From: Candidatus Omnitrophota bacterium
Lineage (GTDB): Bacteria; Omnitrophota; Gorgyraeia; 2-02-FULL-51-18
Length of the DNA stretch: 64,000 bases
Assembly: GCA_945877765.1 (NCBI GenBank)
Contig: CAMDWQ010000011.1
Coordinates: forward strand, 2,641 to 66,640
Direction of reading: 5' to 3'
The notes under the pieces are model-generated. The model searched no databases. It saw only the letters and a program-made list of their open reading frames with translations, and had not been told where the DNA came from. This document shows, piece after piece, positions 1-50,300 of this stretch; position 1 is the stretch's first letter; the number at the start of each line of letters is the position of its first letter. A program made the position numbers and the translations under genes.

Positions 1-231
1 AAGAATTGAAAAAAAGAAAATATTCACCGCACCAAACGCGCGAAACGCCGTGTCTTGAGATCTCAGCGCCTGCGGAGTCATCAACACGGTACAGACCCAT
101 ATTCCAAGCACCCACGAAATACTGACATCTTTAGAGCTCTTACGTTTCATCATATGAAGAATCATCGGAATATTAAAAAACGGCATCACAATGCAGGCCG
201 CCGTTCCGATTTTCTGTATCCACTCATCCAT
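1..231 (-). CDS. small integral membrane protein, truncated by window start (possible PQ-loop-like)
   Basis: Minus-strand ORF from ATG at 231, overlapping the pheT stop in a TAATG context, runs off the window start. Translation MDEWIQKIGTAACIVMPFFNIPMILHMMKRK...LMTPQAL is hydrophobic. Confidence 0.35.
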   Translation of the reverse strand, partial: MDEWIQKIGTAACIVMPFFNIPMILHMMKRKSSKDVSISWVLGIWVCTVLMTPQALRSQDTAFRAFGAVNIFFFSIL

Positions 232-2315
232 TATCTAAACTCGACCGCATAGCGAGATTTAAGATCACGCCCCACGTTTTCCTGAAGCGACTGAATTTCA
301 CTGTCAGTAAAAGTCCCTGTTTCTTTCTGATAAGCCAATGAAAATGCTAAGCTTCGCTTGCCTGGGGCAATATTCCTTCCTATATATTGGTCAAAAAGGA
401 CCACTTCCCTCAAATTTGGCTGAGCGCTCGATTTCATAAGCTCTTGGAGCTCGACCACCGAGATTGTCTCATCCGCAATAAAAGCAAGATCCCGGCGCAC
501 CACAGGAAATTTAGAAACCGGCTTCACCTTACCCGCTAAAAGAGGCCTCGCAAGAATCTCATCTAAAATGATTTCGGCGTAATACCCCTGGTGAGGAATA
601 TCAAAATTTTTCAACACTGCCGCCGACACGCACCCGACCCTTGCCAATAGAAGACCCTCTTGCGAAATATTTACTGTCTGATCCAATCCCATACTTTGAT
701 CGGCATCTTTCCAGCTAGCGTTTTGAGCCCCGATAAACTGCAGTACGTTGGCCACAATTCCTTTTAAATCATAAAATGACGCGTCCGACTTCCGTTGCCA
801 ATTATTTTCAAAAGAGCCGTAAATCAAAAGACCCAGCACCGTCACTTCACGGTTGTCCTGATAACAATTACCGACTTCAAATAGCTTAAGCCCTGCCGCT
901 TTGCGGTGAATATTAAAGACAGCTGCCTCCAACATTCCCGGCAAAAGCAAAGGCCTAAAAAACTCTTGTGCCGCGCTTGTGGTATTGACGACGCGATGCG
1001 CCTTTTCAAGATCAAAACCCGCATCCTTAAGAACCTTCGCCGACATTAAACTATACGTGATAATTTCCGAGAATCCAAGGGCTTCCATGAATTTTTTTAT
1101 TCCAGGGGTCCGTACTGCCTTTAGGCTCTCTGGGCTCGCTATGCCATACCGAGTCGACGGGATCAGCGTAGGGATCTTCTCAAAACCTTCAATGCGGAGA
1201 ATCTCCTCCACCAAATCTTCCTCTTGGCTGATATCGCGTCGATACGAACTCGGTTGGACCAAAATTTTATCTTTCCCAGAAACTTTAGCTGCTATAGAAA
1301 GCGCCTTCAAAATAGCCACTATCCTCTTCTGAGAGACCTTCATCCCCAAAATCTTCTCAACACGGCCGACACGTAAGACAATATCCGCTAGTTTCTTGGT
1401 ACCCAGACTACCCTTTTCAACAAGACCCGAAACCTCCTGCCCCCCCGCCCATTCCAGAATGAGTTCGGAAGCACGTCTTGAAGCGCTAGCCACACCCGCA
1501 GGATCCACCCCACGCTCAAAACGATAGCTCGAATCCGTTGAGATTTTACATTTGCGGGCTGCCTGCCGCACGAGCGCCGGGTCAAAATAAGCGGCTTCTA
1601 AAAGAACGTTCTTGGTTGCGTGTGTCACTTCAGTAAGTTTGCCGCCAATCACACCGGCAATGGCAATCGCCCGCTCGACATCCGCCACAACAAGTGTCTT
1701 TTCATCTAACGTATATTCAATGCCGTCAATTCCCAGAAATTTTTCACCCTTACGGGCATACCGCACAATAATCTTAGCGCCCTTAATCTTGTCAAAATCA
1801 AACGCATGCAACGGCTGTCCCGATTCAAACAACACAAAATTGGTCGCATCCACCACGTTGGAAATAGCCCGTGTGCCCGTCAACTCAAGAAGCTCTTTGG
1901 CTTCTAGTGGCGACGATTTCACCGTCACATTCTGTATCAACCGGCCGGTGTAAAGCGGACAGGCTTTTTTGTCTTCGATGGTAATACCAAATGTCATTCC
2001 CGAATGTTTTAACCGGGAATCATGTCTGGTTTGGTCCCTCGACTTGGCTCGGGATGGCTTTGCCTTTTCTTTATTTTTATAAGCAGATGGCAAAGTCACT
2101 TTCTTTCCCGTCAGTGCCGACATCTCATGTGCCAACCCCAAAATCGAAAGACAATCCGGCCGATTCGTCGTCACCTCAAGCTCGATGACAACCTCGTCCC
2201 CTTTTTTCTCAACCGCCTCGACTTTGGTACCTGACATCGTAAGCATCTCTTCCAGCTTTTCTGCGGAGAGATTGCACTCGATGTATTTTTTTAACCAGCG
2301 AATGGGAAGTTTCAT
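231..2315 (-). CDS. pheT: phenylalanine--tRNA ligase beta subunit
   Basis: 694-aa ORF with PheT-like N-terminal tRNA-binding and B3/4 regions (NRPDCLSILGLA, ACPLYTGR); adjacent to pheS. Confidence 0.9.
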   Translation of the reverse strand: MKLPIRWLKKYIECNLSAEKLEEMLTMSGTKVEAVEKKGDEVVIELEVTTNRPDCLSILGLAHEMSALTGKKVTLPSAYKNKEKAKPSRAKSRDQTRHDSRLKHSGMTFGITIEDKKACPLYTGRLIQNVTVKSSPLEAKELLELTGTRAISNVVDATNFVLFESGQPLHAFDFDKIKGAKIIVRYARKGEKFLGIDGIEYTLDEKTLVVADVERAIAIAGVIGGKLTEVTHATKNVLLEAAYFDPALVRQAARKCKISTDSSYRFERGVDPAGVASASRRASELILEWAGGQEVSGLVEKGSLGTKKLADIVLRVGRVEKILGMKVSQKRIVAILKALSIAAKVSGKDKILVQPSSYRRDISQEEDLVEEILRIEGFEKIPTLIPSTRYGIASPESLKAVRTPGIKKFMEALGFSEIITYSLMSAKVLKDAGFDLEKAHRVVNTTSAAQEFFRPLLLPGMLEAAVFNIHRKAAGLKLFEVGNCYQDNREVTVLGLLIYGSFENNWQRKSDASFYDLKGIVANVLQFIGAQNASWKDADQSMGLDQTVNISQEGLLLARVGCVSAAVLKNFDIPHQGYYAEIILDEILARPLLAGKVKPVSKFPVVRRDLAFIADETISVVELQELMKSSAQPNLREVVLFDQYIGRNIAPGKRSLAFSLAYQKETGTFTDSEIQSLQENVGRDLKSRYAVEFR
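1992..2060. repeat. ~70-bp dyad-symmetric intergenic-type repeat (GTCATTCCCGAA family), in-frame copy inside pheT
   Basis: gtcattcccgaatgttttaaccgggaatcatgtctggtttggtccctcgacttggctcggg matches the intergenic repeat family. It encodes the Lys/Arg/Ser-rich stretch PSRAKSRDQTRHDSRLKHSGM of PheT. Confidence 0.7.
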
Positions 2316-3157
2316 TTTTTCTTTATCTTTTTTGCTTCAACCACCATTTTTTTATCATCAGCTTTAACTTTACGCTCCAACTTTTTGATATCTTCTTCCG
2401 CGTGTAAATTTTCAGGCTTAATCCCACTCTTTGCCAATAAGTCCCGAACATCTTTGTTATTTTTTACATGCTCTCCTGAAATGGGGCTCTCGCCTTTCAG
2501 ATCTTTCTTTCTAACGTTAAAGTTAGTTATTTCAGTCGCCAAATCTTTCGCTTTGATGGTGATTGTAGGTAAGAAATCGGCCAACGGACGATTTTCGGGA
2601 ATCCTCATCTTGCTCTTCATTTGTAAAGTCGTATATCCGCCAAATAAGGCCTGATCCCCTTTGCTTCTCATTCTTCCAAAACCCGGGCCATCGACCCCAC
2701 GCTCGTAAACAAGCCCTGAAAGTTCGTTTTCAGTGGTGACTAGCTTTTGTCGCGCGTGAAGTCTTTCGACGAGCTTGATTCGTTCTTGAAGAAGCTCTTG
2801 TTTACGCGTCTGAATAGCAAAATAACTTTGGGCAAAAGCTATAGCTTCTTTCTTCGGGTCGCCATTCTGCGCTATTAAATAACAAGCATAACGAGTCAAC
2901 GCTATATCATCTATTTCCCTCTCACTACCAGACCCCAATAAGACCATTTTGTTGACGTCAACAAAATGGTCTTCTATTCTCTGCCCTGCCTTCCCACAGG
3001 CTAATTTAGCCTTTTCAATGACTTGAACAAAATTTCTCCACTCAGTGTATTCGAGTAACTCTTGTATGTTACGCGCAAACCAAAACTCTATACCCTCTTT
3101 TTCAAAAGCAGCCTGCTCAAAATTTTTGTTTAATTTAATAACTAGCTCTTTTTCCAT
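2312..3157 (-). CDS. dinD: DNA damage-inducible protein D homologue
   Basis: The region WRNF..V...A..AC......H...FV...KMV.LGSG..RE..D..L.RYACYL..QNGDP.K...A.AQ.YFAIQTR.QEL aligns with E. coli DinD. The gene overlaps the pheT start by 4 nt. Confidence 0.75.
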   Translation of the reverse strand: MEKELVIKLNKNFEQAAFEKEGIEFWFARNIQELLEYTEWRNFVQVIEKAKLACGKAGQRIEDHFVDVNKMVLLGSGSEREIDDIALTRYACYLIAQNGDPKKEAIAFAQSYFAIQTRKQELLQERIKLVERLHARQKLVTTENELSGLVYERGVDGPGFGRMRSKGDQALFGGYTTLQMKSKMRIPENRPLADFLPTITIKAKDLATEITNFNVRKKDLKGESPISGEHVKNNKDVRDLLAKSGIKPENLHAEEDIKKLERKVKADDKKMVVEAKKIKKK

Positions 3158-4160: not shown

Positions 4161-4168
4161 CCCAACAA

Positions 4169-4238
4169 TGTCATTCCCGAATTTTTTAATCGGGAATCAT
4201 GTCTGGTTTGATCCCCGATTAGAGACTTCGGGGATGAC
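4169..4238. repeat. ~70-bp dyad-symmetric intergenic repeat (GTCATTCCCGAA family)
   Basis: tgtcattcccgaattttttaatcgggaatcat...gatccccgattagagacttcggggatgaca lies between pheS and rplT. It consists of two tandem hairpins with outer GTCAT/ATGAC inverted ends. Confidence 0.75.
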
Positions 4239-4305
4239 AGGCGTATAAATACGAAACACCAGGACAAGCACAGCTTGTCTGGTGTTTATATTTAACTAAG
4301 CAAAT

Positions 4306-4856: not shown

Positions 4857-4928
4857 TGTCATTCCCGCGAAAGCGGGAATCAAACCATTATTTGTTATGA
4901 TCCCCGATTAAAAATTTCGGGGATGACG
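4857..4928. repeat. dyad-symmetric intergenic repeat, GCGAAAGC-loop variant
   Basis: tgtcattcccgcgaaagcgggaatca...gatccccgattaaaaatttcggggatgac between rpmI and infC. Confidence 0.75.
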
Positions 4929-5476: not shown

Positions 5477-5538
5477 TGTCATCCTCGCGAAAGCGGGGAT
5501 CTGTTTTAGTACGGATTCCCGCTTTCACGGGAATGACA
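5477..5538. repeat. dyad-symmetric intergenic repeat, GCGAAAGC-loop variant
   Basis: tgtcatcctcgcgaaagcggggatc...gattcccgctttcacgggaatgaca between infC and thrS. Confidence 0.75.
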
Positions 5539-7861: not shown

Positions 7862-8156
7862 AAACCCTCCTTTTTCTTTATCGATGGCACTACCGTAATA
7901 CTATATACCAATCGATTGAAAATTTCAATAGCGGGTCTTAGCATTACTTTTAGAAAAAGACTCAAGACCGACTTTCATCAATGCTTCTGATTCACGTGTA
8001 TTTTCGGGATGTTTCTTATAGGCCGTTATATACTGTTTTTCTAGATCAGTGCATTGTTTGGCGATTTTAGACATAATTTATTTAATGCTTAATCCTATTA
8101 TTAATTTCTACTACCCACTGCTTTTTTTCGAGTCTTGTATTGCCTACTCCTAGATA

Positions 8157-8249
8157 CCCGTGACGGGTGGCGCGGAGGGTGGGCGCCCATTGACCCGCAG
8201 GGCGAAGCCTGAGGACGCAATGGGCTCCCGCAGCGACAGGCCCCGTCAC
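8157..8249. repeat. GC-rich ~90-bp hairpin repeat, copy 1 (REP-like)
   Basis: cccgtgacgggtggcgcggagggtgggcgcccattgacccgcagggcgaagcctgaggacgcaatgggctcccgcagcgacaggccccgtcac is a long imperfect hairpin (cccattg/caatggg; gtgacggg/cccgtcac). A second copy lies at 10277-10367. Confidence 0.7.
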
Positions 8250-8262
8250 CACACTAAATACT

Positions 8263-8336
8263 TGGGCAATACAGGACTCGAACCTGTGACCTTTTCCATG
8301 TCAAGGAAACGCTCTAACCAACTGAGCTAATTGCCC
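8263..8336 (-). tRNA. tRNA-Val (GAC)
   Basis: Reverse complement GGGCAATTAGCTCAGTTGGTTAGAGCGTTTCCTTGACATGGAAAAGGTCACAGGTTCGAGTCCTGTATTGCCCA gives a cloverleaf with a 7-bp acceptor stem, TTCGAGT T-loop and anticodon GAC. Confidence 0.8.
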
Positions 8337-10215: not shown

Positions 10216-10276
10216 GACAATCTTTCTCTCCAAGCCGAGGAATGGCGCATAAAACAACGCTCTTTACCTTTTTACT

Positions 10277-10367
10277 CCCGGCGGGTGACGCGGAGGGTGG
10301 GCGCCCATTGACCCGCAGGGCGAAGCCCGAGGACGCAATGGGCTCCCGCAGCGGCAGGCCCTGCCGC
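10277..10367. repeat. GC-rich ~90-bp hairpin repeat, copy 2 (REP-like)
   Basis: An ~80-bp core is nearly identical to the 8157-8249 copy in the same orientation. It lies between tRNA-Leu and a tRNA-Cys candidate. Confidence 0.7.
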
Positions 10368-10416
10368 ACACCTAAACACTCCAAACACCAAAGAACACAA
10401 CACCGCAAACATTCCG

Positions 10417-10487
10417 AGGCGCGAACCGGAGTCGCACCGGTCTACGAGGTTTTGCAGACCTCTGCCTAACTGCTCGGCCATCGCGCC
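10417..10487 (-). tRNA. tRNA-Cys (GCA) candidate
   Basis: Reverse complement GGCGCGATGGCCGAGCAGTTAGGCAGAGGTCTGCAAAACCTCGTAGACCGGTGCGACTCCGGTTCGCGCCT has acceptor GGCGCGA/TCGCGCC, anticodon loop CTGCAAA and a 3-bp D-stem. The T-loop TGCGACT is non-canonical. Confidence 0.45.
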
Positions 10488-10560
10488 AGAGAATTACCTA
10501 CAAAATAGACCGCGCCGAACCCATTAAGTTAACAAAAACCACCTCGCCAGTCACGCAATT

Positions 10561-10586
10561 TATTATTGGGCTAACACAGTGGGCTA
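10561..10586. repeat. tandem 13-mer gggctaacacagt x2
   Basis: gggctaacacagtgggctaacacagt, followed by gtatataaacacc. A related array gggctaacacctc x3 is at 11899-11937. Confidence 0.8.
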
Positions 10587-10763
10587 ACACAGTATATAAA
10601 CACCGGACTCAGTCCCAATCACCCAAAAGTACACAGTTAGAAAAGATTTTGTTTCTCCTGGGTGTCGCTTATGCGCTCATGGGTGACATAGAAGCGGTAA
10701 ACCGCTCTTCTCTCATCATCAGATATCCCTAGAATTGAATATACAGGCGACTCGGTGATGAGG

Positions 10764-11195
10764 TCATCCTTTTTTCCGTAGGCGATGTTCCTCCGGAGAG
10801 CCGACAAGCTTGGCTGTGAGCGGATTCCGCTCGACATAACGTCCGCATTCCAAGAGATACGCGTCGCTCTCAATGGGAAAGCTCGAATAGTTTCTCTTAA
10901 AGACCTGCTCGGACCATCGGTGGGTTTTGCAGTAATAGTACGCATACCGTCTCTGGACAAAATGAGCGAACTTGCCAAGCATCTCAAGATCCGGGGATTT
11001 TAAAACCAGATGGATGTGATTGGTCATAAGGCAGTAATGGTACGTCTGCACATCAAACCTATCTGCGTACTCTTTCACGAGAAGCAGATAAGCTCTATAG
11101 TCGTCATCCTTATGAAAGAGCTTCTTTTTGTTCACTCCTCGGGTGACAAAGTGGTAGACGCCTGATGCACTGGTCTTGCGTGGTTTTCTTGGCAT
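10764..11195 (-). CDS. REP-associated tyrosine transposase (RAYT; IS200-like Y1 transposase)
   Basis: 143-aa ORF with YHFVTRGVNKKKLF...YHYCLMTNHIHLVLK (HxH motif) and a downstream Tyr (YAYYYC), the Transposase_17/RAYT architecture. Confidence 0.75.
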   Translation of the reverse strand: MPRKPRKTSASGVYHFVTRGVNKKKLFHKDDDYRAYLLLVKEYADRFDVQTYHYCLMTNHIHLVLKSPDLEMLGKFAHFVQRRYAYYYCKTHRWSEQVFKRNYSSFPIESDAYLLECGRYVERNPLTAKLVGSPEEHRLRKKG

Positions 11196-11307
11196 GAAAG
11201 CCTCCCTTTATATAACTAGACGCCTTGGGAGGGGATTTTCGTTCAGACCTTTTTGCTATCGGCTAACTGCGCCCTTCTTGCGGGGTTTGGACTGAGTCCG
11301 GTATTAA

Positions 11308-11443
11308 CATCACTTCCTGGATCTTGAAGAAGCCTGGAAAACGATCGAAGAATGGCGTATGAGCTATAATGACTTCAGGTCGCACAGTTCGCTAGACGGT
11401 ATGACGCCTGAGGCTTTTGCAGTGCAGTGGTAGGATAAAAACA
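11308..11443 (+). pseudogene. DDE transposase (IS3/IS481 integrase-core) C-terminal fragment
   Basis: Translation HHFLDLEEAWKTIEEWRMSYNDFRSHSSLDGMTPEAFAVQW* matches the conserved C-terminal YN..RPHS.L...TP.EF tail of integrase-core transposases. The N-terminus is absent and it begins directly after a TAA. Confidence 0.6.
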
Positions 11444-11469
11444 ACAACCAAAACACCGCTAAACTGTCT

Positions 11470-11793
11470 TTAAAACTTGTACGCTCCTTGTGCATTTTCT
11501 GACGGGGTTGAACTCAAGAAGCCGATAAGGATAAAAATCAATAGGGTCACAAGAATGACAACTCCTATAACGACTGCGACAACAGAAAGGTTACTTTTTT
11601 GCGATGCTTCCATCTTGCGCTCCTGCAGGCCGAAGTAAATTCCGCTGCCTGCAAGAATGAGAGAAATAAGCCAGCAAATAAGGGAAATATAACCCCCGAT
11701 TTCCGGCAACCCTGAAAGAAAAAGACCTACAATGAAAATCAGAAACCCATAGACCTCAAATTGAAAGGAGAGAGGGGCCTTTATTTGCATCAC
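11470..11793 (-). CDS. hypothetical small membrane protein
   Basis: 107-aa ORF with three predicted TM helices; lies inside the inserted module. Confidence 0.4.
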   Translation of the reverse strand: MMQIKAPLSFQFEVYGFLIFIVGLFLSGLPEIGGYISLICWLISLILAGSGIYFGLQERKMEASQKSNLSVVAVVIGVVILVTLLIFILIGFLSSTPSENAQGAYKF

Positions 11794-11902
11794 AATCCTC
11801 CTTGGACCTTATCTGCTATTGCTTTGGCTAAATGAAATAATCGATTAATACTAGCACGGACAAGTGGTCGATGCAATTCTTAGTTGTATATAAACACCGC
11901 GG

Positions 11903-12520
11903 CTAACACCTCGGGCTAACACCTCGGGCTAACACCTCTGCCCTCTGAATCAAAAGTCGAGCTAGTTTTTTTTTAGAAATCTTTTTTAAAGGCTCTACAC
12001 AGCCGCAAACATCTACCAGAAAAGCATCTATCAGCTTATCTCCAAACGGCGTATTATTTTTCACAACCTTCTGCACTACAATAAGTCCCAACATTTTCCT
12101 ACGAAGTTTTTCATAGCCATTTTTTAATAGATTACCGGATTCCAGCGCAAATCCAATAAAAACCTGCCCCTTTTTCTTACTTTTTGATAATTCTTGTAAA
12201 ATGTCGGGGTTTTTAATCAAGCGCAGAGTCGACAATTTCTCTTTTTTTATTTTTTGTGAGGAAACCGCCACCGGCCGGGCATCGCAGACTGCCGCCGCCA
12301 TGATCAACACGTCATTTTTTGGTAAACGGCGCTTGAGCTCCCTCAAAAGATCCCGCGCTGTCTCGACTGTTTGAGGACATTCCACCCAATCCACTTGGTG
12401 ACGCCGAGCCTTGGCTGCTTCCACCAAATAACGCCCCATCGTGCCCGTTGAATAATTGGATAGGTACCGGACAGGATCGATAGGTTCCCGCGTGGGGCCC
12501 GAAACAATAAGAAACCGCAT
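11903..12520 (-). CDS. coaB: phosphopantothenate--cysteine ligase (CoaB)
   Basis: 205-aa ORF MRFLIVSGPTREPIDPVRYLSNYSTGTMG... is a CoaB/DFP CTP-binding fold. The last ~9 codons are encoded by the gggctaacacctc tandem repeat. Confidence 0.75.
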   Translation of the reverse strand: MRFLIVSGPTREPIDPVRYLSNYSTGTMGRYLVEAAKARRHQVDWVECPQTVETARDLLRELKRRLPKNDVLIMAAAVCDARPVAVSSQKIKKEKLSTLRLIKNPDILQELSKSKKKGQVFIGFALESGNLLKNGYEKLRRKMLGLIVVQKVVKNNTPFGDKLIDAFLVDVCGCVEPLKKISKKKLARLLIQRAEVLARGVSPRC

Positions 12521-16419: not shown

Positions 16420-18242
16420 TAAGCGCTCAGGCGGCGAAGCTTCTCCATATAGATGGCAAGTGTTGAAATGTCACAAGGTGTGATACCGGAGATACGAGAC
16501 GCCTGCCCAAGGGATACTGGGCGAATCTTTTCAAATTTTTCCTGAGCTTCTCTACGTAGACCCATAACTTCTTTAAATACAATAGTTTCCGGCACTTTCT
16601 TTTCTTCATTATTGCGATAGCGACTCACCATACTCTCTTCTCTTTCGACATAGCCTGAGTATTTGACCTCGATCTCAATCTGTTCTTCGACTTCCCTATC
16701 CCCTATCTCTTCATTTAATAAGCCCATCACGTTCCTCAACTTCACTTCGGGACGACGGAGATATTGCTCCATAGAGACTTGCTGATAGCGCTTGGTTTTT
16801 AGCTTGTCTATCCATTCAATAATGCGGGCTTGTTTTTGATTAAATTTTAAAAACTGCTCTTTTGAAATAAGTCCAAACTCATACCCATAGCTCATCAATC
16901 TCTTATCGGCATTGTCTTGGCGCAAAAGTAAGCGATGCTCCGCGCGTGAGGTAAACATCCGATAAGGCTCCTCCGTGCCGTGAGTAACCAGATCATCAAT
17001 CAAAACTCCAATATAGGCCTCCGACCTCCCCAAAATAAACGGCGCCTGGCCCCTATTCTTTAAGCAAGCGTTGATCCCAGCCATGAGCCCCTGGCACGCC
17101 GCCTCTTCATATCCTGAGGTGCCATTAATCTGACCCGCCAGATAAAGATTTTCTACCTTTTTAGTTTCCAACGTTGGCTTTATTTGAGTGGGCGAACAAA
17201 AATCATACTCAATCGCGTAACCAAATCTCATAAGCTCTGCATTTTCAAGACCTTGCACACTTCTAATAAGTTGTATTTGAATATCCTGTGGAAAACTTGT
17301 TGAAAAACCATTAATGTAAACTTCATTCGTGAAGCGCCCTTCAGGCTCCAGAAATAGCTGATGGCGCAGTTTATCCACAAAACGAAACACTTTGTCTTCA
17401 ATGGACGGACAATAGCGCGGACCGCGGCTTTGGATTTTCCCCGAGTACATAGGGGAGAGGTTAATATTTTTTTTAATCAGGTCGTGAGTGTTTTCATTCG
17501 TGTAGGTGATATGACAAGGCAGTTGCTCTTGAGTGATTTTGTGCGTCTGAAAACTAAAAGGTGCGGGATCGGCATCCCCGTGCTGAGCTTCCAACTTTGA
17601 AAAATCAATCGAGCGCGCATTTAAGCGTGGGGGAGTGCCCGTTTTTAAACGCTTCACTTCCAGCCCTTGTTTTTCTAGACACGCGGAAAGTCCTACGGAA
17701 GGTTTATCACCGGCACGGCCGCCGCCAAAAGTGATTTCGCCGATATGAATCAATCCATTTAAAAAAGTACCTGTGGTGATGATCACGGCTTTTGCATAAT
17801 ACGCGGTGTTGATATTCGTGAGAACACCTTCGACAGAATTACCATTGATCAAAAGTTCTTTGACCTCACCCATCTTAAGATCGAGATTGGGTTGGCTTTC
17901 CAGCACGTGCTTCATCGTCATCGCATAAATTTTTTTGTCGCACTGACCGCGGGGAGCCCACACGGCGGGGCCTTTAGAACGATTGAGCATGCGAAATTGG
18001 ATGCCCGTACGATCCGTCACTTTTCCCATCTCACCACCCAGCGCGTCAATTTCACGCACGATGTGGCCCTTAGCAATGCCACCGATAGCGGGATTACAGG
18101 ACATCTGTGCCACCGAGTCGATATTCATCGTCAGCATCAGAGTGGACTGACCCATACGTGCCGCCGCCAGCGCTGCTTCGCAACCTGCGTGGCCGGCGCC
18201 GACAACAATCACATCATATTTTTTTTCAGAGGGGATAAGCAT
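16419..18242 (-). CDS. mnmG: tRNA uridine 5-carboxymethylaminomethyl modification enzyme MnmG (GidA)
   Basis: 607-aa ORF with FAD-binding VIVVGAGHAGCEAA and conserved MnmG core. Confidence 0.9.
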   Translation of the reverse strand: MLIPSEKKYDVIVVGAGHAGCEAALAAARMGQSTLMLTMNIDSVAQMSCNPAIGGIAKGHIVREIDALGGEMGKVTDRTGIQFRMLNRSKGPAVWAPRGQCDKKIYAMTMKHVLESQPNLDLKMGEVKELLINGNSVEGVLTNINTAYYAKAVIITTGTFLNGLIHIGEITFGGGRAGDKPSVGLSACLEKQGLEVKRLKTGTPPRLNARSIDFSKLEAQHGDADPAPFSFQTHKITQEQLPCHITYTNENTHDLIKKNINLSPMYSGKIQSRGPRYCPSIEDKVFRFVDKLRHQLFLEPEGRFTNEVYINGFSTSFPQDIQIQLIRSVQGLENAELMRFGYAIEYDFCSPTQIKPTLETKKVENLYLAGQINGTSGYEEAACQGLMAGINACLKNRGQAPFILGRSEAYIGVLIDDLVTHGTEEPYRMFTSRAEHRLLLRQDNADKRLMSYGYEFGLISKEQFLKFNQKQARIIEWIDKLKTKRYQQVSMEQYLRRPEVKLRNVMGLLNEEIGDREVEEQIEIEVKYSGYVEREESMVSRYRNNEEKKVPETIVFKEVMGLRREAQEKFEKIRPVSLGQASRISGITPCDISTLAIYMEKLRRLSA

Positions 18243-18256
18243 AAATTTTATGTTAC

Positions 18257-18327
18257 TGTCATCCCCGAATTTTTTAATCGGGGATCATACCTAGTTTGAT
18301 TCCCGATTAAAGCCTTCGGGAATGACA
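18257..18327. repeat. dyad-symmetric intergenic repeat (GTCATCCCCGAA family)
   Basis: tgtcatccccgaattttttaatcggggatcat...gattcccgattaaagccttcgggaatgaca between yidC and mnmG. Confidence 0.75.
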
Positions 18328-19974: not shown

Positions 19975-20036
19975 TGTCATCCTCGCGAAAGCGAGGATCA
20001 GCATTAGTTTAGATTCCCGCTTTCGCGGGAATGACA
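19975..20036. repeat. dyad-symmetric intergenic repeat, GCGAAAGC-loop variant
   Basis: tgtcatcctcgcgaaagcgaggatc...gattcccgctttcgcgggaatgaca between yidD and yidC. Confidence 0.75.
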
Positions 20037-23725: not shown

Positions 23726-23850
23726 TGTCATCCCTAATGTCATCCCCGAAATTATTTATCGGGGATCATACTCGGTTTGATTCCCGATTAAAACCTTCGG
23801 GAATGACAGTGGACAGGTTTGATTCCCGATTAAACATTTCGGGAATGACA
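23726..23850. repeat. dyad-symmetric intergenic repeat, 1.5 tandem copies
   Basis: tgtcatccctaatgtcatccccgaaattatttatcggggatcat...gattcccgattaaaaccttcgggaatgacagtggacaggtttgattcccgattaaacatttcgggaatgaca. Confidence 0.75.
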
Positions 23851-26718: not shown

Positions 26719-26789
26719 TGTCATCCCCGAAATCTTTAATCGGGGATCATGTATAGGTTTGATTCCCGATAAATACTTTCGGGAATGAC
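26719..26789. repeat. dyad-symmetric intergenic repeat (GTCATCCCCGAA family)
   Basis: tgtcatccccgaaatctttaatcggggatcat...gattcccgataaatactttcgggaatgaca between gyrB and gyrA. Confidence 0.75.
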
Positions 26790-26801
26790 AAATGGAGAAT
26801 T

Positions 26802-29800
26802 ATGGCCGAACAGCAGAAAAATTCTTATACAGCGAATGAAAAAATAAGATCCGTTTTCATCGAGCAGGAGATGAAGACGTCCTATCTAAATTATTCAATG
26901 AGTGTCATCGTCGGTCGCGCTCTGCCGGATGTCCGTGACGGTTTAAAGCCCGTGCATCGCCGCATTCTTTTCGCGATGAAAGAGCTGGGTCTCGACCACA
27001 GCCGCTCGTATAAAAAATCCGCTCGTATCGTCGGAGAAGTCCTCGGTAAATATCATCCGCATGGCGATACCGCCGTGTATGACACGATGGTGCGCATGGT
27101 CCAATATTTTTCACTGCGTTATCCGCTGGTTGACGGCCAAGGTAACTTTGGTTCAGTAGACGGCGACAGCGCGGCGGCGATGCGTTATTGCGTGACTGGG
27201 GATACGCTCGTGGTCACAGACAAGGGTCTTGTTCCTATTGCGGATATATCGCCCGACCAGTCTGAGGATATCTCGATCAAGATTCTTTCTCGTGATAAAA
27301 AAGTCAATAGCGCCGCCAAATGGTTTGACAGTGGAAAGCACCGGACGCTCAAGGTAACCACAAAAGGTGGCTATGAAATTAAAGCCACCACGAATCATCC
27401 TCTGCTTGTATGGGCGGGCGGAGAAGATGGCAGGCCCGGGTTTGAATGGAAACTATTAGGGAAGCTGAGCCCAGGGGATGTGGTCGTCATCGACCGAAGC
27501 GATGATCTTCTGTGGCCCCAAGAGTATGTGGACACAAAATCTTTTTGGCCGGAGGTTAAGTCTACCCGAATCGTTGAAAAAACACTGCCGGTGGTTTTAA
27601 ACGAAGATCTCGCTTCTCTTTTGGGCGCTCTTGTCGCCGAAGGCACGATCAAAGAAAACAAAATTGAATTTTGCAACAGCGATGAGGCGTGGCTCAACGA
27701 CTTTGATGAAGAGTGGCGGAGAACATTTCCCGATTGTCGTCTTCATTCATTTAAGAGAAAGCCAAGTTCGTACGGCAAAAAAAATTATTTCACCCGAGAG
27801 ATTCACTCCCGACATTGCGTTAAGTTTTTAAGGGCGATCGGATTAGAGCCTGTTCGTTCCAAGGATAAAACGGTACCGGATTTAATATTTCGTTCTCCGC
27901 GCCGTGTGGTGGCGGCATTTTTAAGGGCTTATTTTGAGGGTGACGGCGGTGTGACCTCCAGTGGGAAAAAGATGGTCGAGCTTTCTTGTGTGTCGGTAAG
28001 CGAAAAACTGATAAGTCAGATTCAGGTGATACTTCTAAGATTTGGCATTGTTTCCGCCAAAAGGTATGATTCCTACCGTAAAACTTACAAGCTTTACATA
28101 CGCGGGCTTGAAAACTATAGGGCGTTTCAAAAAGAAATAGGATTTATTTCCACGAGGAAAAATACCCTTTTAAATTCTGTGATCGAATCGTATCACAAAG
28201 TCTGCTCATCCACCGATTATGTGCCGTTTTTGAGTGATTTTGTGCGTTCCCATGCGGGGGACGATTCGACATGGAGCGCCAAAGAATTTGCGTTGAAGAA
28301 CAATTTTGACAGATACAACAATCTTTCCGAAAAAGGCGACCGTGTCATGTTGTCGGTGGCCGTTGAAGAGCGGACTCATGTACAAACACTTTTTGAAAAT
28401 CTGCTTAACTACCGCTATTATTTCGACCCCATTGCCAAAATTGAAGACAATGGAATCCAGACCGTTTATTCTCTGCGCGTAGACAGTGCTTGTCATTCAT
28501 TTGTCGCCAATGGATTTATAAATCACAATACCGAAGCACGCCTTGCCGGCATCACCGACGAAATCCTGCGCGATATCGATAAAGAGACCGTCAACTTTGC
28601 CCCCAATTTTGACGAGAGCTTGGAAGAGCCAACACTTCTTCCGGCAACACTGCCCAATCTTTTGTGTAATGGCTCCAGCGGTATCGCCGTCGGTATGGCG
28701 ACCAATATTCCTCCGCACAACTTGACCGAAGTTTGCGATGCCATTGCCGCGACCATTGAAAATCCTGAGATTCAGACCAAGGAATTGATGAAGTATATTA
28801 AAGGTCCCGATTTCCCGACGGGTGCTACGATTTGCGGCACCGAAGGAATCAAGTCGGCTTACGAGACAGGCCGCGGCATCATTAAGATTCGCGCCAAAGC
28901 AAGCATTGAAGAGATTCGCGGAAGCCGCGAAGCGATTGTTGTCACCGAGATCCCTTATCAGGTCAACAAATCCAATCTCATTGAAAATATCGCTGACTTA
29001 GTAAACAGCAAAAAAATTGAAGGTATTTCCGACGTGCGCGATGAGTCCGACAAGGACGGAATGCGCCTGGTTATTGATCTTAAGCGCGACGCTAATTCGC
29101 AAGTCATTTTGAATCAGCTTTACAAGCACACGCAGATGCAAAATACATTTGGTATTATTTTGCTGGCACTTGTTGACGGAAGCCCCCGCGTGTTGAAGCT
29201 TAAAGAAATCATCATCGAGTACATCAAGCACCGCAAGGTAATCATCACGCGCCGCACGATATTCGACCTGGCCAAAGCCAAAGACCGCGCGCACATCGTT
29301 GAAGGCTTGATGAAAGCCGTCGACATCCTCGACAAAATTATTAAAACCATCCGCGGGTCCAAGACCCCGGCCGAAGCCAAAGTCGCCTTGGTGGAAAAAT
29401 ATGAGTTTTCCGAGCGCCAAGCACAGGCCATTTTGGAAATGCAGCTGCAAAAGCTCACCGGCCTTGAAATTCACAAGCTTGAAGATGAGTTCAAAGAGCT
29501 TTTAAAGAAAATCGCTTATTTTGAATCGATCCTCAATTCTGAAAAGAAAGTCCTCGAGATCGTGAAGGAAGAGCTCGCGGATCTCAAGAAAAAATACGGC
29601 GACGACCGCCGCACGGACATCTCGCGTTCAATCGATCTAGACATGAACATGGAAGATTTGATTGCCGACGAAGATGTCGTCGTCACGATTAGCCACCAAA
29701 ATTACGTCAAGCGCCTGCCGGTTACCACTTACCGTAAGCAAAAACGCGGGGGAGTCGGCGTAGGCTCAGGCGGCATCGAAGAAGATTTTGTGGAGCATCT

Positions 29801-30629
29801 TTTCATCGCGTCCACGCATGACACGCTCATGCTTTTCACCTCCAAAGGAAAAGCTTTCACGATTAAAGTACACGAGTTGCCCCAGGCCAGCCGTATTTCC
29901 AAGGGCAAATTCATCGCCAACTTTGTGTCTCTGTCTCAGGGAGAAAAGATTACCTCCTATATTCCTGTCCGGAAATTCGAAGAGGGTCAGTACCTGGTCA
30001 TGTGCACCAAGCTTGGTCAGATCAAAAAATGCGAACTGACGGATTTTGAAAACACACGCCGCAGCGGCATCATTGCTATCGGCTTAGATCCAAAAGATGA
30101 GCTCATCATGGCCGCTCTGACCGACGGCAAAGAAGAGATCGTCATCGCGACCCGTAAGGGCAAAGCCATCCGCTTCCCCAACAATGACGTCCGCAGCATG
30201 GGCCGCAACGCCGGCGGTGTGCGAGGCATCACTCTTGAAGATAAGGATTATGTTATCGGCATGGAAGTCGTCGACAAAAAAGCCAATCTTTTAACCGTCA
30301 CCGAAAAAGGTTTCGGCAAGCGTTCCGAAGTCGAAGAATACCGAGTCACCGGCCGCGGCGGCAAAGGCGTCACCAACGTCAAAGTCACCGACAAAAACGG
30401 CGAAGTCGTCGGCATGAAGTGCGTCACCGAGAAGTATGACTTAATGATTATGACGCAAACCGGCATGGTGGTAAGATGTTCAGTCAAAGACATCCGGGAG
30501 ACCGGCCGTGTCGCGCAAGGTGTGCGCCTCATTAACTTGAAGAAGGATAACGACAAAGTAGTCAGCATCACCTCCGTAGAGCCCGAAGACGACGGCGCCG
30601 CGGCAGCACCCGAAAAAGAACTCGTCTAA
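26802..30629 (+). CDS. gyrA: DNA gyrase subunit A, interrupted by an intein
   Basis: 1275-aa ORF with the GyrA N-terminus. The conserved AAMRYTEARL motif is split as AAMRY|C...HN|TEARL. Extein length is 828 aa. Confidence 0.95.
27189..28529 (+). mobile_element. GyrA intein (447 aa) with LAGLIDADG homing-endonuclease domain
   Basis: Begins CVTGDTLVV at residue 130 and ends VANGFINHN, followed by Thr(+1). Internal blocks LLGALVAEG and [11 protein letters not shown]. Same insertion site as mycobacterial GyrA inteins. Confidence 0.85.
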
Positions 30630-32722: not shown

Positions 32723-34183
32723 TTGAAACTGCTTAAAGCACTCGTTATAGGAATTCTTTTTTTCCAACCGGTCTATGCCTCGCAAGCCGACATTCAAAAT
32801 ATTCCATCGTCCGAATATTTCTCCACCGCTCTCACTGAAATTTCCCAGGCGAAAGAATCGATCTATGTTGTCATGTATCTTGTCTCTTTCGACCCCGCCA
32901 ACCCCAATACCAAAGTCTCCCAGCTTTTAAAAGCGCTGGTCGATGCCAAAAATAGGGGAGTCTGGGTCCAAGTTATTTTTGATCAAACGATTGATTTTGC
33001 GGAAGACCAGCGGCCTGCGGAGGGATATAGAAATAAGAATGCCCCGGCGTTTGAATATTTACGGGCCAATCAGGTGGAGGTTTTCTATGATACCGAAGGG
33101 ACTTATACGCATGCCAAGGCGATTGTCATTGATCGGGAGATTTCGCTATTTGGCAGCAGCAACTGGTCCCGGGCGGCGCTGACTAAAAATAATGAAGTCA
33201 ATGCGATGGTGCGTTCATCCGAATTTGCGCAGGATCTTATTGATCAATGGGGCAAGATTGAACTTCAGCCCAATGTTGCGGTGGTAGCCGCGCCTTCTGT
33301 CAAAATCCCGCGGGATTTTCTGACCAATCCTGCGTTGTTCCAGGAAATGATCTCTCACGGCGACGAACGCGCTTTGGATGTCTATCTTTACCTCTTGAGC
33401 CAGTACCGCCAAACGGCGGATTCAAAAGTGATTCTGGATTACGACGACCTTGCGTCTTCTCTTGCCATGAGCGGTATGGCACCCGTAGATTATCGCCGGC
33501 AGATTACCAAGACCCTTTCAAAGCTAAAGGGAAAATACCGTCTGATTGATTTCCAAAACCCGACTCATGGCCAAAACGCCCAAATCACGCTGAAAGCTCC
33601 GGAGGCCGCCGATTCTTTTGATCTACCACTCACTTACTGGAAATATCACTGGCCCCAAAAACTTTCATTTCCCGCCAAGGTTATGTATCTCATTTTAATT
33701 TCTAATACCGATCTGGCGTCACCCAGTTTTACTATTTCAAGAGAAGGCCTCGCTAATGAATTTTCCATTTCAAAGTCTTTGATTTCAGACGGCACCAGAG
33801 ACTTAAGATTCCAGAACCTGCTCGACATTCAATATTCCCCCATGGACCGCGAAGATTTTTCCGACAGAAAGCCCAATAGCTACACTCCCACCCCGCTGTA
33901 TGACCCGTCAGCCCTTCAAGAATCCATAGCCGCTCTCGGCCAAAAAGAAGGACAGGCCAAACTCGATCGCGCCCTGAATGCCGCCTCCCAGGTTTTCGCC
34001 CAAAACAATCTATCTGCGATCAAATCACTCCTCGACCTCGAATCCCAATACGGCCCCGCCATCATCCACCAAGCCGCCCAAAAAATAGGCGAAAAAAAAT
34101 CCGACAACCCCAAACGATCCATCGCCTATCTAATCGCCACCATCAAAAGCATGGCCCGAATATACCGTACCCCGTCCCCATGA
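32723..34183 (+). CDS. secreted phospholipase D-family (HKD) nuclease-like protein with long C-terminal extension
   Basis: Signal peptide MKLLKALVIGILFFQPVYASQA, then the HKD motif HAKAIVIDREISLFGSSNWS (H.K....D...GS.N). The last codons are supplied by a MITE terminal repeat. Confidence 0.65.
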   Translation: MKLLKALVIGILFFQPVYASQADIQNIPSSEYFSTALTEISQAKESIYVVMYLVSFDPANPNTKVSQLLKALVDAKNRGVWVQVIFDQTIDFAEDQRPAEGYRNKNAPAFEYLRANQVEVFYDTEGTYTHAKAIVIDREISLFGSSNWSRAALTKNNEVNAMVRSSEFAQDLIDQWGKIELQPNVAVVAAPSVKIPRDFLTNPALFQEMISHGDERALDVYLYLLSQYRQTADSKVILDYDDLASSLAMSGMAPVDYRRQITKTLSKLKGKYRLIDFQNPTHGQNAQITLKAPEAADSFDLPLTYWKYHWPQKLSFPAKVMYLILISNTDLASPSFTISREGLANEFSISKSLISDGTRDLRFQNLLDIQYSPMDREDFSDRKPNSYTPTPLYDPSALQESIAALGQKEGQAKLDRALNAASQVFAQNNLSAIKSLLDLESQYGPAIIHQAAQKIGEKKSDNPKRSIAYLIATIKSMARIYRTPSP

Positions 34184-34262
34184 CCCAAAAAGGGACACGT
34201 TAACTCACGAGAGAGCATGGATTTTTTTGTTCTTTTTGACCCGCTCAGGGTTGGGGCATATA
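34167..34262. repeat. partial copy of the 177-bp MITE (left arm plus core only)
   Basis: ccccgtccccatgacccaaaaagggacacgttaac...ggatttttttgttctttttgacccgctcagggttgggg.atatactga matches 55076-55175. The right terminal repeat is absent. Confidence 0.65.
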
Positions 34263-34381
34263 CTGACTATGTTGACCCCGCTTTAAGGTCACAATTTGTG
34301 ACCTTGAATGCTTGGCCTCTGACAGGATCCACCCAAACTTGAGATGCCAATTTGGCATCTCAAACTTTCTAGCTGATACCT

Positions 34382-34858
34382 TCAAAAGCGCTTCGGCGGT
34401 TCTTCATTTTTGGGTTTATCCTCCACGAGCATTTTGATCGCTTTGAATACAACCTGAAACTGCTGGTCGTATTTTTTCTCCAACTCATCCACGCGGATTC
34501 TTAGGTCTTTGTGAGTGATTGCCAATTCACGTAATTTCATAAATGTGCGCATGATCTGGATATTTACTTGTATAGCCTTCTTACTATTTAAAACGCTGGA
34601 GAGCATCGCCACGCCTTGTTCTGTAAATGCATAAGGGCTTGCGCGGCGAATGCCACCCCAACTTGAAATCACAAATTGTGATTTCAAGTTCTCAAATTCA
34701 TTATTCGTTAGCTGAAACATGAAATCATCTGGAAATCTATCTTTATTACGCTTAACCGCCTGGATCAGTGAACGAACTTCTACATCGTAAAGCTCTGCCA
34801 AGTGGGTACTGAGCATGACTCTTTGGTTTCTTAGTGTAAAAATATATTTTTCTGTCAT
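34382..34858 (-). CDS. ORF6N-domain protein (paralogue 1)
   Basis: ATG at 34858 with AAGGAGGG RBS. LRNQRVMLSTHLAELYDVEVRSLIQAVKRNKDRFPDDFMFQLTNNEFENLKSQFVISSWGG is ORF6N-type. Confidence 0.6.
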   Translation of the reverse strand: MTEKYIFTLRNQRVMLSTHLAELYDVEVRSLIQAVKRNKDRFPDDFMFQLTNNEFENLKSQFVISSWGGIRRASPYAFTEQGVAMLSSVLNSKKAIQVNIQIMRTFMKLRELAITHKDLRIRVDELEKKYDQQFQVVFKAIKMLVEDKPKNEEPPKRF

Positions 34859-35156
34859 AAAACCCTCCTTACCATACAGGACGACACAGACCCCCTTTTT
34901 CGTCAAAAAAATATCAGGATTTTTGCTATCGGTTAACTCATTTCCAACGGAAATTGGAGGTCACAATTTGTGACCTCCAATGTTGGGGTCTGTGGAGGAC
35001 TGCTTCAGGGATTTGAACCGGTCACAATTTGTGACTAGTTCGTTTTGGCCATTGGTCGAGACGCGAGTACAGATGACACATTTTTTCATGGCGGTATTTG
35101 CGCGAGCCGTCCCAACTTGATGTCCCAAATTGGAACATCAAGCCTGCAAAATATCC

Positions 35157-36214: not shown

Positions 36215-36218
36215 GCAC

Positions 36219-50272: not shown

Positions 50273-50300
50273 TCTAACCAATGGATGTGTCACCCTTCAA

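What the first reader, a model, noticed from the sequence alone, without database searches (positions are those of the whole stretch)
1992..2060. In-frame insertion of the intergenic repeat inside pheT (RPE-like behaviour)
One family member lies within the pheT reading frame without interrupting it. It contributes a Lys/Arg/Ser-rich segment (about PSRAKSRDQTRHDSRLKHSGM) in a loop that is roughly 17-20 aa longer than the equivalent E. coli PheT region. Its second half is degenerate, consistent with an old insertion tolerated in a surface loop. In-frame palindromic-element insertions into housekeeping genes are the hallmark of Rickettsia palindromic elements and are rare elsewhere.
Basis: partly seen in the sequence, partly recalled or inferred. 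Interest (0 to 1): 0.7.

Follow-up and report, generated by a model that had tools for sequence, protein, structure and literature searches.

The report
REP repeat translated inside pheT
A small palindromic "junk DNA" repeat that normally sits between genes has landed in frame inside the essential pheT gene of an uncultured Omnitrophota bacterium, adding 22 amino acids to a floppy surface linker. This kind of event is already documented, but in these bacteria it has hit the same linker repeatedly.

Summary
Confirmed. Window 1992-2059 lies inside an intact pheT (231..2315, minus strand, 694 aa). It is a dimer of small palindromic repeat units, translated as P87-T108 (PSRAKSRDQTRHDSRLKHSGMT).

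- **Match to the repeat family.** The outer unit plus spacer is 94% identical over 49 nt to an intergenic dimer 2.1 kb away in the same operon (4167-4215).
- **Lineage-specific.** The three sister orthologues (about 77-78% identical) lack the segment.
- **Location in the protein.** An AlphaFold model (mean pLDDT 92.6) places it in a low-confidence coil linking domain B1 to B3/4. That stretch is 20 residues longer than in E. coli PheT.

1. The "degenerate second half" is a unit of a different repeat subtype, best matched by units in other Omnitrophota contigs. It is not a decayed partner.
2. The family fits the CGTC/TGTC-tagged REP superfamily of Di Nocera et al. 2013. That superfamily includes Rickettsia RPE-4 and RPE-6 and was already catalogued inside genes, including tRNA-synthetase genes, in several phyla. 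The behaviour is therefore known and not so rare.

New here: the same PheT linker carries independent palindromic inserts in at least four other Omnitrophota lineages. No dedicated transposase was found.

Verdict: a real feature and a new member of a known kind, of modest interest.

The parts
231..2315 (-). pheT (phenylalanyl-tRNA synthetase beta subunit), 694 aa, intact. A short form without the B2/OB domain.
   Evidence: ORF and translation. Pfam B3_4, B5, tRNA_synthFbeta and FDX-ACB. Fold matches bacterial PheRS beta chains at E<=1e-50. Residues 38-151 of E. coli PheT have no counterpart.
1992..2059 (-). In-frame REP dimer insert, translated as P87-T108 plus 2 nt of the K86 codon. The ends are uncertain by about 1 nt.
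   Evidence: Absent from P0002-P0004 and nearly all other orthologues.
1992..2023 (+). Outer unit: TGTC tag, ATTCCCGA stem (closing pair broken by T->C), tail CAT. 'CCCGAA' subtype. Encodes H98-T108.
   Evidence: Covariance-model hit of 37.3 bits, E = 6e-7, the lowest score of its subtype in the window. Hairpin retained at -5.4 kcal/mol.
2024..2033 (.). Spacer between the two units (ATGTCTGGTTTG register), identical to the spacer of the 4169-4239 dimer.
   Evidence: Alignment A2; repeat family D3.
2034..2059 (-). Inner unit of a different subtype: GCCATCCCGAGCCAAGTCGAGGGACC. The tag has mutated from GTC to GCC and the tail from GATC to GACC. Encodes K86/P87-D94.
   Evidence: Unique in the window. 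Closest to the P0007 in-gene unit (27/33) and to L153 intergenic units (25/30, 23/30).
4169..4239 (+). Closest intergenic relative and possible donor: a 71-nt dimer between rplT and pheS in the same operon. Both 'TCA TYC CCG' frames are open.
   Evidence: 94% identity to the pheT copy over 49 nt. Folds as one long hairpin, z = -5.8. Translations.
4857..4928 (+). Heterodimer of one GAAA-loop unit and one CCCGAA-type unit, between rpmI and infC.
5477..5538 (+). Dimer of GAAA-loop (CGTC-1-like) units between infC and thrS.
18257..18327 (+). Intergenic dimer between mnmG/gidA and yidC.
19975..20036 (+). Intergenic GAAA-loop dimer between yidC and yidD.
23738..23850 (+). Intergenic dimer plus one extra unit, between dnaN and dciA.
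26719..26790 (+). Intergenic dimer between gyrB and gyrA.
10764..11195 (-). Y1/HUH transposase gene resembling a RAYT. Tested as a candidate mobiliser and not linked to the repeat.
   Evidence: Pfam Y1_Tnp at 1.6e-11. NCBIfam REP_Tyr_transpos at 48 bits, below the cut-off of 80. No units flank it, nor 36 homologues in metagenomes.

Best explanation
The segment is a fossil dimer of CGTC/TGTC-tagged REP units. These are short hairpin repeats that spread as non-autonomous selfish DNA. This dimer became fixed inside pheT.

Shown:
- It is a member of the window's intergenic repeat family.
- It is absent from the sister orthologues.
- It is read in the one frame of the element that has no stop codon.
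- It adds a basic, disordered peptide to the B1-to-B3/4 linker, and the rest of PheT is unchanged.
- That linker is the main place where Omnitrophota PheT tolerates extra sequence. Other lineages carry unrelated palindromic inserts there.

Inferred:
- The copy arose by local transposition or ectopic conversion from the neighbouring dimer upstream of pheS. It was either already a heterodimer or landed next to an older unit.
- It survived because only in-frame, stop-free insertions in a length-tolerant loop of an essential gene escape purifying selection.
- It is now immobile, because it can no longer form the long hairpin.
- It is most likely neutral passenger sequence.

The mobilising enzyme is unknown. 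That is the published situation for the whole CGTC class.
For: - **Family identity and significance:**
- **Hairpin pairing is maintained.** At the one free stem position, 50 distinct units show T-A 37, C-G 12, T-G 1, C-A 0.
- **Intergenic dimers fold as one long hairpin** (z = -5.8 to -8.3). The pheT copy does not (z = -0.6 and -1.0).
- **Reading frame.** Only the 'TCA TYC CCG' frame is open, in either orientation, and pheT uses it.
- **Lineage specificity.** The linker measures 42-50 aa in 98 of 106 orthologues and 64 aa here. The tree gives (P0001,(P0002-4)) at 93.5%.
- **Loop location.** pLDDT is 84, 53 and 66 for residues 81-110, with coil from 88 to 109, in a model of mean pLDDT 92.6. E. 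coli and Staphylococcus PheT show a gap at this point.
- **Selection against genic copies.** 88% of the window is coding, yet only 1 of 9 repeat loci is inside a gene.
- **Hot spot.** P0017 carries a TGTCATCCCCG...CGGGGATCA unit in the same frame, which the model detects at E = 0.002. P0007 carries GTCATCCCGAGCGAAGTCGAGGGATC, while its 91%-identical sister P0009 does not. P0085 carries a long palindrome (z = -4.6) and P0114 carries CCGTAGGGCGGGTTTAAACCCGCCCTACGG (z = -6.4). Only two other sites in the 109-sequence PheT alignment hold rare inserts of 5 aa or more.
- **Published precedent:**
Against: - No empty-site/filled-site pair is close enough to fix the insertion boundaries. The net gain is 16-17 codons for an element of about 23, so roughly 6 linker codons were lost or replaced.
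- No target-site duplication is visible.
- No mobilising enzyme was identified.
- Only 64 kb of the genome was available, so the inner-unit subtype could not be shown to exist elsewhere in this genome.
- Neutrality is assumed, not tested. The peptide is basic, as is the native linker.
- Translation of the segment is inferred from the intact ORF only.
Confidence: 0.85

Rival explanations
1. Two-step nest. An older single unit of the GAGCSAAGTCGAGG subtype already sat in the linker. A CCCGAA-type unit plus spacer was added beside it later, by REP-next-to-REP insertion or by gene conversion from the dimer at 4169-4239. This is a variant of the main explanation, not an alternative to it.
For: The two halves differ sharply in how well they match window copies: 94% for the outer half, and at most 22/34 with 5 gaps for the inner half. 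The inner unit has lost its tag and tail. P0007 shows that a single unit of that subtype can sit alone in this linker. Heterodimers exist in the window, for example 4857-4928. Published REP families cluster as dimers and groups.
Against: Sister orthologues P0002-P0004 have no unit at all, so both steps must be confined to this one lineage. The spacer is shared with the intergenic dimer, which fits a whole dimer being copied.
Confidence: 0.35
2. Exaptation. The REP-encoded basic peptide has been recruited as a functional appendage, for example non-specific tRNA contact that compensates for the missing B2/OB domain. The recurrence in the linker would then reflect positive selection.
For: These PheTs lack B2. 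Several inserts are rich in Lys and Arg: PSRAKSRDQTRHDSRLKHSG, SSRAKSRD...KLRRGS...GLGKKRG. The recurrence is striking.
Against: The inserts are unrelated in sequence and length, are each confined to a single lineage, and are absent from about 92% of orthologues. The segment is predicted to be disordered. The frame used is simply the only open one. The native linker is already basic. No functional data exist.
Confidence: 0.07
3. Coincidence or reverse direction. The extra segment is ancestral PheT sequence that merely resembles the repeat, or the intergenic repeats derive from pheT.
For: The native linker of relatives has some hairpin potential. In P0003, CCCGCC...GGCGGG gives z = -2.9.
Against: 0 matches are expected by chance against 8 found. 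The covariance-model E-value is 6e-7. 98 of 106 orthologues lack any extra sequence. The family occurs in unrelated contigs and in viral contigs.
Confidence: 0.01
4. Assembly artefact. A repeat-induced chimera placed the element inside pheT.
For: The source is a metagenome assembly, and repeats are classic sites of mis-joins.
Against: The flanks are collinear with orthologous pheT on both sides, and the frame is preserved. Two other assemblies made with different assemblers (Logan and MEGAHIT-style ENA contigs) give the same gene with 0 and 1 mismatches.
Confidence: 0.01

Closest known systems
CGTC-tagged REP superfamily (Di Nocera, De Gregorio and Rocco 2013, BMC Genomics 14:522; PMC3733652)
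   Same: Shared features:
- An unpaired CGTC or TGTC tag.
- A stem of about 8 bp starting with A-T and T-A pairs.
- A short tail (CCA in most metagenomic copies).
- Dimers in opposite orientation.
- A location between unidirectional ORFs.
- Occasional in-frame intragenic copies encoding 20-30 aa, including in tRNA-synthetase genes.
- No RAYT flanked by the units.

The window's GAAA-loop units translate to SFPRKRES and DSRFRGND. These are identical to the peptides listed for R. conorii CGTC-1 inserts.
   Different: The phylum is different: Omnitrophota is not among the five phyla listed for CGTC repeats. The CCCGAA subtype has a longer, AT-rich loop (9 nt, or 5 nt if two extra pairs and one mismatch are allowed). 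Window copies end in CAT or CAA rather than CCA. The target gene, pheT, is not in the published list.
Rickettsia palindromic elements (RPE; Ogata et al. 2000 Science 290:347 and 2002 Genome Res 12:808, cited and from my own knowledge)
   Same: Palindromic repeats inserted in frame into housekeeping genes, translated, and compatible with the protein fold. RPE-4 and RPE-6 are assigned to the CGTC class.
   Different: RPE-1 is 100-150 bp and specific to Rickettsia, and roughly half of its copies lie in ORFs. Here only 1 of 9 loci in 64 kb is genic. The host is a free-living or episymbiotic PVC-group bacterium, not a Rickettsia.
REPIN-RAYT systems (Bertels and Rainey 2011, PLoS Genet; PMC3116915, listed)
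   Same: Two inverted REP units with a short spacer fold into one long hairpin. There are many intergenic copies. A RAYT-like Y1 transposase gene is present in the window.
   Different: The tag is TGTC/CGTC, not GTAG. The RAYT-like gene is not flanked by the units, and neither are 36 homologues.
Bacterial MITEs with in-frame fusions (ERIC, BOX, QMITE1, Correia; review PMC10969869)
   Same: Small, non-autonomous, with inverted termini, and able to form in-frame fusions with host ORFs.
   Different: At 71 nt the dimer is at the lower size limit. No target-site duplication is visible. No parent IS with matching termini was seen in the window.

Membership tests
CGTC-tagged REP superfamily (Di Nocera 2013) | Unpaired terminal tetranucleotide CGTC, often changed to TGTC or CCTC | tested here: met
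   Every one of 52 distinct units (window, Omnitrophota and viral loci) starts with TGTC or CGTC. The outer pheT unit has TGTC. The inner pheT unit has AGCC, i.e. mutated.
CGTC-tagged REP superfamily (Di Nocera 2013) | Stem of 8-9 bp whose first two pairs are complementary A/T residues | tested here: met
   The stem is AT[T/C]CCCG[A/C] pairing with its complement ...AT, 8 bp. Covariation at the variable pair is T-A 37, C-G 12, T-G 1, C-A 0.
CGTC-tagged REP superfamily (Di Nocera 2013) | Loop of 4-5 nt | tested here: inconclusive
   The GAAA-loop units (4857, 5477, 5512, 19975, 20010) have 4-nt loops. The CCCGAA subtype, to which the outer pheT unit belongs, has a 9-nt loop with the strict 8-bp stem, or a 5-nt loop with a 10-bp stem containing one mismatch.
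CGTC-tagged REP superfamily (Di Nocera 2013) | Short unpaired tail, consensus CCA | tested here: met
   CCA is the consensus tail of the 52 aligned units. Window copies end in CAT or CAA.
CGTC-tagged REP superfamily (Di Nocera 2013) | Mostly intergenic between unidirectional or convergent ORFs; frequent dimers in opposite orientation | tested here: met
   8 of 9 loci are intergenic in co-directional gene strings, and 7 loci are dimers.
CGTC-tagged REP superfamily (Di Nocera 2013) | No dedicated RAYT flanked by the units | tested here: met
   The RAYT-like gene 10764..11195 has no units in its flanks. No unit lies next to any of 36 homologous loci; the nearest candidate hairpins are weak and of other sequence.
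Rickettsia palindromic elements (RPE) | A member of the RPE sequence families of Rickettsia genomes | tested here: not met
   PheT homologues place the host in Omnitrophota / the PVC group. The similarity to RPE-4/6 is only at the level of the superfamily.
Rickettsia palindromic elements (RPE) | In-frame insertion in a functional ORF, with the insert on the protein surface | tested here: met
   Intact ORF with all invariant residues. Disordered coil in the AF2 model.
Rickettsia palindromic elements (RPE) | A high proportion of copies inside ORFs | tested here: not met
   1 of 9 loci in this window. The covariance-model search finds no other genic copy. Only 64 kb was sampled.
REPIN-RAYT | Two inverted REPs forming one long hairpin | tested here: met
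   Intergenic dimers give z = -5.8 to -8.3. The pheT copy itself fails, at z = -0.6.
REPIN-RAYT | GTAG-type 5' tag and a cognate RAYT flanked by the REPs | tested here: not met
   The tag is TGTC/CGTC. The RAYT-like gene is unlinked.
MITE | Terminal inverted repeats plus a target-site duplication | tested here: not met
   The termini TGTCAT...ATGACA are inverted, but no duplication appears in the flanks of 9 copies.
MITE | A parent insertion sequence with the same termini | not tested
   None was seen in the 64-kb window. The rest of the genome was not available (one search found no match in genome contigs).

The most novel reading that the evidence does not exclude
The B1-to-B3/4 linker of the B2-less Omnitrophota PheT may be more than a merely permissive site. 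One possibility is that it is a true landing pad for palindromic repeats: REP-next-to-REP nesting, with the linker itself a fossil REP. The other is that REP-encoded basic peptides are repeatedly recruited there as a tRNA-contacting appendage. Either would make this linker a natural system for studying how transposase-less CGTC REPs move, or how selfish DNA seeds new protein segments.
Probability: 0.12. Interest if true: 0.55.

Novelty: new member of a known kind. Interest (0 to 1): 0.35.

Why it matters
This extends CGTC-tagged REPs, and their RPE-like habit of being translated inside essential genes, to Omnitrophota. That phylum is poorly studied and has no described repeat biology; I found no paper on it.

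The pheT copy is young on one side: 94% identical to a neighbouring copy. That offers a handle on how a repeat class with no known transposase moves.

The repeated, independent colonisation of one linker by different palindromes is a clean natural example of selection filtering selfish-DNA insertions down to permissive protein loops. It is also a caution for annotation, and for alignment-based phylogenies of aaRS genes in metagenome-assembled genomes.

Tried and rejected
1. **Scan of genome contigs for the dimer spacer pattern** found nothing. The source genome is not among the species representatives.
It returned only one close relative (L006, 55%, no insert, no units), and the rest were distant phyla.
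3. **Protein-database search with a profile of the element-encoded peptide**, meant to catch other proteins with in-frame copies. The concatenated 46-aa profile found no candidate, not even P0001, so this negative result is uninformative.
4. **RAYT hypothesis.** The Y1 transposase at 10764..11195 looked promising, but it is not flanked by units, and 36 metagenomic homologues are not either.
5. **Empty-site versus filled-site comparison of P0007 and P0009.** The two contigs are mosaic strain variants (50-100% identity by segment), and the linker is too diverged to define boundaries.
6. **ORF 17892..18299**, which ends inside a repeat, overlaps the real mnmG/gidA gene and is spurious.
7. **Rfam.** No family matches the repeats, only chance miRNA-like hits at E of about 0.5.
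8. **Literature search by sequence string** returned only primers.
9. **P0088's rare insert at a different PheT site** is not palindromic.
10. **P0006's contig DNA** could not be fetched.
Full report
**1.

pheT occupies 231..2315 on the minus strand as one uninterrupted 694-aa ORF. It carries the four PheRS-beta Pfam domains. It keeps all 58 residues that are invariant across 109 orthologues, and none of those lies between positions 61 and 118.

The motif GTCATTCCCGAATNTTTTAANCGGGAATC matches 1993-2021 exactly. It also matches seven other places in the window, against zero in 100 shuffles. Over 49 nt, 1990-2038 is 94% identical to intergenic 4167-4215 and 71-80% identical to three further copies. 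A covariance model built from 52 distinct units scores 1992-2023 at 37.3 bits, E = 6e-7.

In the pheT frame the element encodes P87-T108, PSRAKSRDQTRHDSRLKHSGMT. Two other assemblies contain the same gene with 0 and 1 mismatches, so it is not an assembly artefact.

**2. Anatomy of the repeat family**

The window holds 16 clear units at 9 loci, all within the first 27 kb. A unit has four parts:
- a TGTC tag;
- an 8-bp stem beginning AT (AT[T/C]CCCG[A/C]);
- a loop;
- the complementary arm and a short tail.

Most loci are dimers of two units in opposite orientation, with tags outward and about 10 nt between them. As single strands the dimers fold into one long hairpin, z = -5.8 to -8.3.

There are two subtypes in the window: an AT-rich-loop 'CCCGAA' type and a GAAA-loop type. 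Pairing is maintained by covariation. Among 50 distinct units fetched with a pattern that left both positions free, the variable pair is T-A 37, C-G 12, T-G 1 and C-A 0.

Eight of the nine loci are intergenic, in short spacers of co-directional gene strings: thrS-infC-rpmI-rplT-pheS, mnmG-yidC-yidD and dnaN-dciA-gyrB-gyrA. Since 88% of the window is coding, genic copies are strongly under-represented.

**3. The insert is lineage-specific and sits in a loop**

The nearest PheT orthologues (P0002-P0004, about 77-78% identical outside the linker) form the sister clade at 93.5% bootstrap and lack the segment.

Between the TTNRPD and C..YT[AG]R anchors, the stretch measures 42-50 aa in 98 of 106 orthologues and 64 aa here, the longest. 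Against E. coli PheT (3PCO_B), the stretch between the flanking aligned blocks is 37 residues versus 17. Staphylococcus PheT shows an 18-residue gap at the same place.

The AlphaFold2 model built with 109 sequences has mean pLDDT 92.6. For residues 81-90, 91-100 and 101-110 the values drop to 84, 53 and 66, with no secondary structure from 88 to 109. The model matches solved bacterial PheRS beta chains at E <= 1e-50.

The segment is therefore a disordered linker between domains B1 and B3/4. These PheTs also lack the B2/OB domain, E. coli residues 38-151.

**4. Why this frame**

In the best-preserved dimer (4169-4239), four of the six frames contain stops in the AT-rich loops. Only the 'TCA TYC CCG' frame is open, in either orientation, giving SSPKSLIGDQTRHDSRLKNSGMT and SFPNFLIGNHVWFDPRLETSGMT. 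pheT uses exactly this frame. So do the inserts in P0007 and P0017. That fits a selection filter rather than design.

**5. The 'degenerate half' is a different subtype**

The inner 26 nt (GCCATCCCGAGCCAAGTCGAGGGACC in the pheT sense) align poorly with every partner unit in the window: at most 22/34 identical, with 5 gaps. They align well with 'GAGCGAAG(T/C)CGAGG'-loop units elsewhere:
- 27/33 to the unit inside P0007's pheT;
- 25/30 and 23/30 to intergenic units of another Omnitrophota contig, L153.

Its tag (GTC to GCC) and tail (GATC to GACC) are mutated. The whole insert can no longer form the long hairpin, z = -0.6 and -1.0.

Heterodimers do exist in the window, for example 4857-4928. So the insert is either a heterodimer copied in one step or a nest of two events. 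I cannot decide between these with 64 kb.

The outer unit and spacer are closest to the copy 2.1 kb upstream in the same operon. That suggests local copying, which is an inference.

The net gain over the sisters is 16-17 codons for an element of about 23. So about 6 linker codons were lost or replaced.

**6. The same linker has been hit repeatedly**

DNA was fetched for the other orthologues whose linker is longer or atypical.

| Orthologue | Identity to window PheT | Insert in the linker | Support |
|---|---|---|---|
| P0017 | 55% | TGTCATCCCCG...CGGGGATCA unit with an expanded loop; its contig's spacers are full of related units | Model hit at E = 0.002 |
| P0007 | about 72% | GTCATCCCGAGCGAAGTCGAGGGATC | Its 91%-identical sister P0009 has none; clade at 100% bootstrap |
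| P0085 | 52% | 85-nt imperfect palindrome | z = -4.6 |
| P0114 | 40% | CCGTAGGGCGGGTTTAAACCCGCCCTACGG | z = -6.4 |
| P0116, P0120 | about 40% | weakly palindromic | |
| P0006 | about 73% | DNA not available | |

The insertion points differ by a few codons, which argues against a single target site.

In the 109-sequence alignment, rare inserts of 5 aa or more occur at only two other sites. The one of those that I checked is not palindromic.

**7. What it is called**

The unit's features are those that Di Nocera et al. [quoted passage not shown]

That paper makes three further points that bear on this case:
- It assigns R. conorii RPE-4 and RPE-6 to the class.
- It lists intragenic copies, more than half of which are dimers or grouped repeats encoding 20-30 aa, in many genes. 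These include glycyl- and isoleucyl-tRNA synthetase of E. litoralis (...IPASAGMT).
- It notes that no RAYT is flanked by CGTC units.

The window's GAAA-loop units translate to SFPRKRES and DSRFRGND. These are identical to peptides listed for R. conorii inserts.

My own test of the RAYT idea agrees with the paper. The window has a Y1 transposase gene that scores best against the RAYT model, though below its cut-off. Neither that gene nor 36 metagenomic homologues are flanked by units.

**8. Verdict**

This is a real, well-supported in-frame REP insertion in an essential gene. The kind of event is known, however, and it is not confined to Rickettsia.

What is new is the phylum, the target gene, and the recurrence in one linker.

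The function of the peptide is most likely none. A role as a basic appendage is not excluded, but nothing here supports it.

Noticed in passing
window 2312-3157 (-): A 281-aa gene lies between pheS and pheT, overlapping pheT's start by 4 nt. It has a Bro-N domain and matches NCBIfam 'DNA damage-inducible protein D' at 3e-103. In four other Omnitrophota contigs pheS is followed directly by pheT.
   Followed up: partly
window 2940-2973: A perfect 34-nt palindrome, AAGACCATTTTGTTGACGTCAACAAAATGGTCTT, lies inside the dinD-like coding sequence and encodes ...DHFVDVNKMV.... It is far too long to be chance in 64 kb. Its purpose is unknown.
   Followed up: no
window 10500-11950: The RAYT-like Y1 transposase gene (10764..11195) appears frameshifted near its C-terminus at an A-run. 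The region is bracketed by GGTGTTTATATAC plus tandem GTGTTAGCCC repeats (10568-10603 and 11900-11935). It also contains what looks, by eye only, like the C-terminal remnant of an IS integrase (about 11300-11440). It lies next to tRNA genes.
   Followed up: partly
window 26802-30629 (+): gyrA is 1275 aa and contains an intein with a LAGLIDADG homing-endonuclease domain (about residues 144-576).
   Followed up: no
window 32723-48744: An apparent DISARM-like defence island. It comprises a PLD-domain protein, a DrmE C-terminal domain protein, a NERD-helicase, a 1657-aa helicase with an MrfA Zn-binding (MZB) domain, a C5 cytosine methylase and a DpnI-like endonuclease. ORF6N/Rha-like genes and a BrnT toxin lie nearby.
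   Followed up: partly
window 47809-58289, 34159-35475 and 55071-55259: Other repeat families occupy the second half of the window, where no CGTC units occur. They include AATCCGGGGACACGTACCGAATT... (6 copies), 11-14-bp palindromes around the ORF6N genes (TTGAGATGCCAAATTGGCATCTCAA type), and a 77-nt repeat at 34161 and 55071 with an inverted partner at 55212.
   Followed up: no
window 8155-8262 and 10273-10380: A 108-nt direct repeat (86% identical) lies just 3' of two tRNA genes (8263-8336 and 10417-10487). It brackets SPFH/Band-7 and YbjQ genes. This may be an integration scar or a duplicated tRNA flank.
   Followed up: no
L086-L115 (IMG/VR viral contigs): The same CCCGAA-type unit occurs in 30 stretches of viral contigs, with up to 8 per 39-kb contig, often with a CGTC tag and a CCA tail and next to other CGTC-type hairpins. 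One unit lies in frame (GFPIEAFGNDA) in an ORF of more than 1847 aa that matches a giant-protein PHROG. In L095 and L102 the 3' arm is tandemly reiterated.
   Followed up: partly
L003 versus L152 (sample ERZ3430527): The two pheT contigs of P0007 and P0009 have equal coverage. They are mosaics: some 700-nt stretches are 100% identical and others only 50-90% identical. They are recombining strains or assembly hybrids.
   Followed up: no
window 20.3-24.2 kb: The window spans the probable replication-origin region (parB, parA, mnmG, yidC, yidD, then dnaA, dnaN, dciA, gyrB, gyrA). CGTC REP dimers sit in nearly every spacer of this region.
   Followed up: no
L153 5860-6001: In another Omnitrophota genome the pheS-pheT spacer holds a 140-nt palindrome with simple-repeat arms (GCACGAA...). 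It is the same style as the palindrome inside that genome's pheT linker.
   Followed up: no
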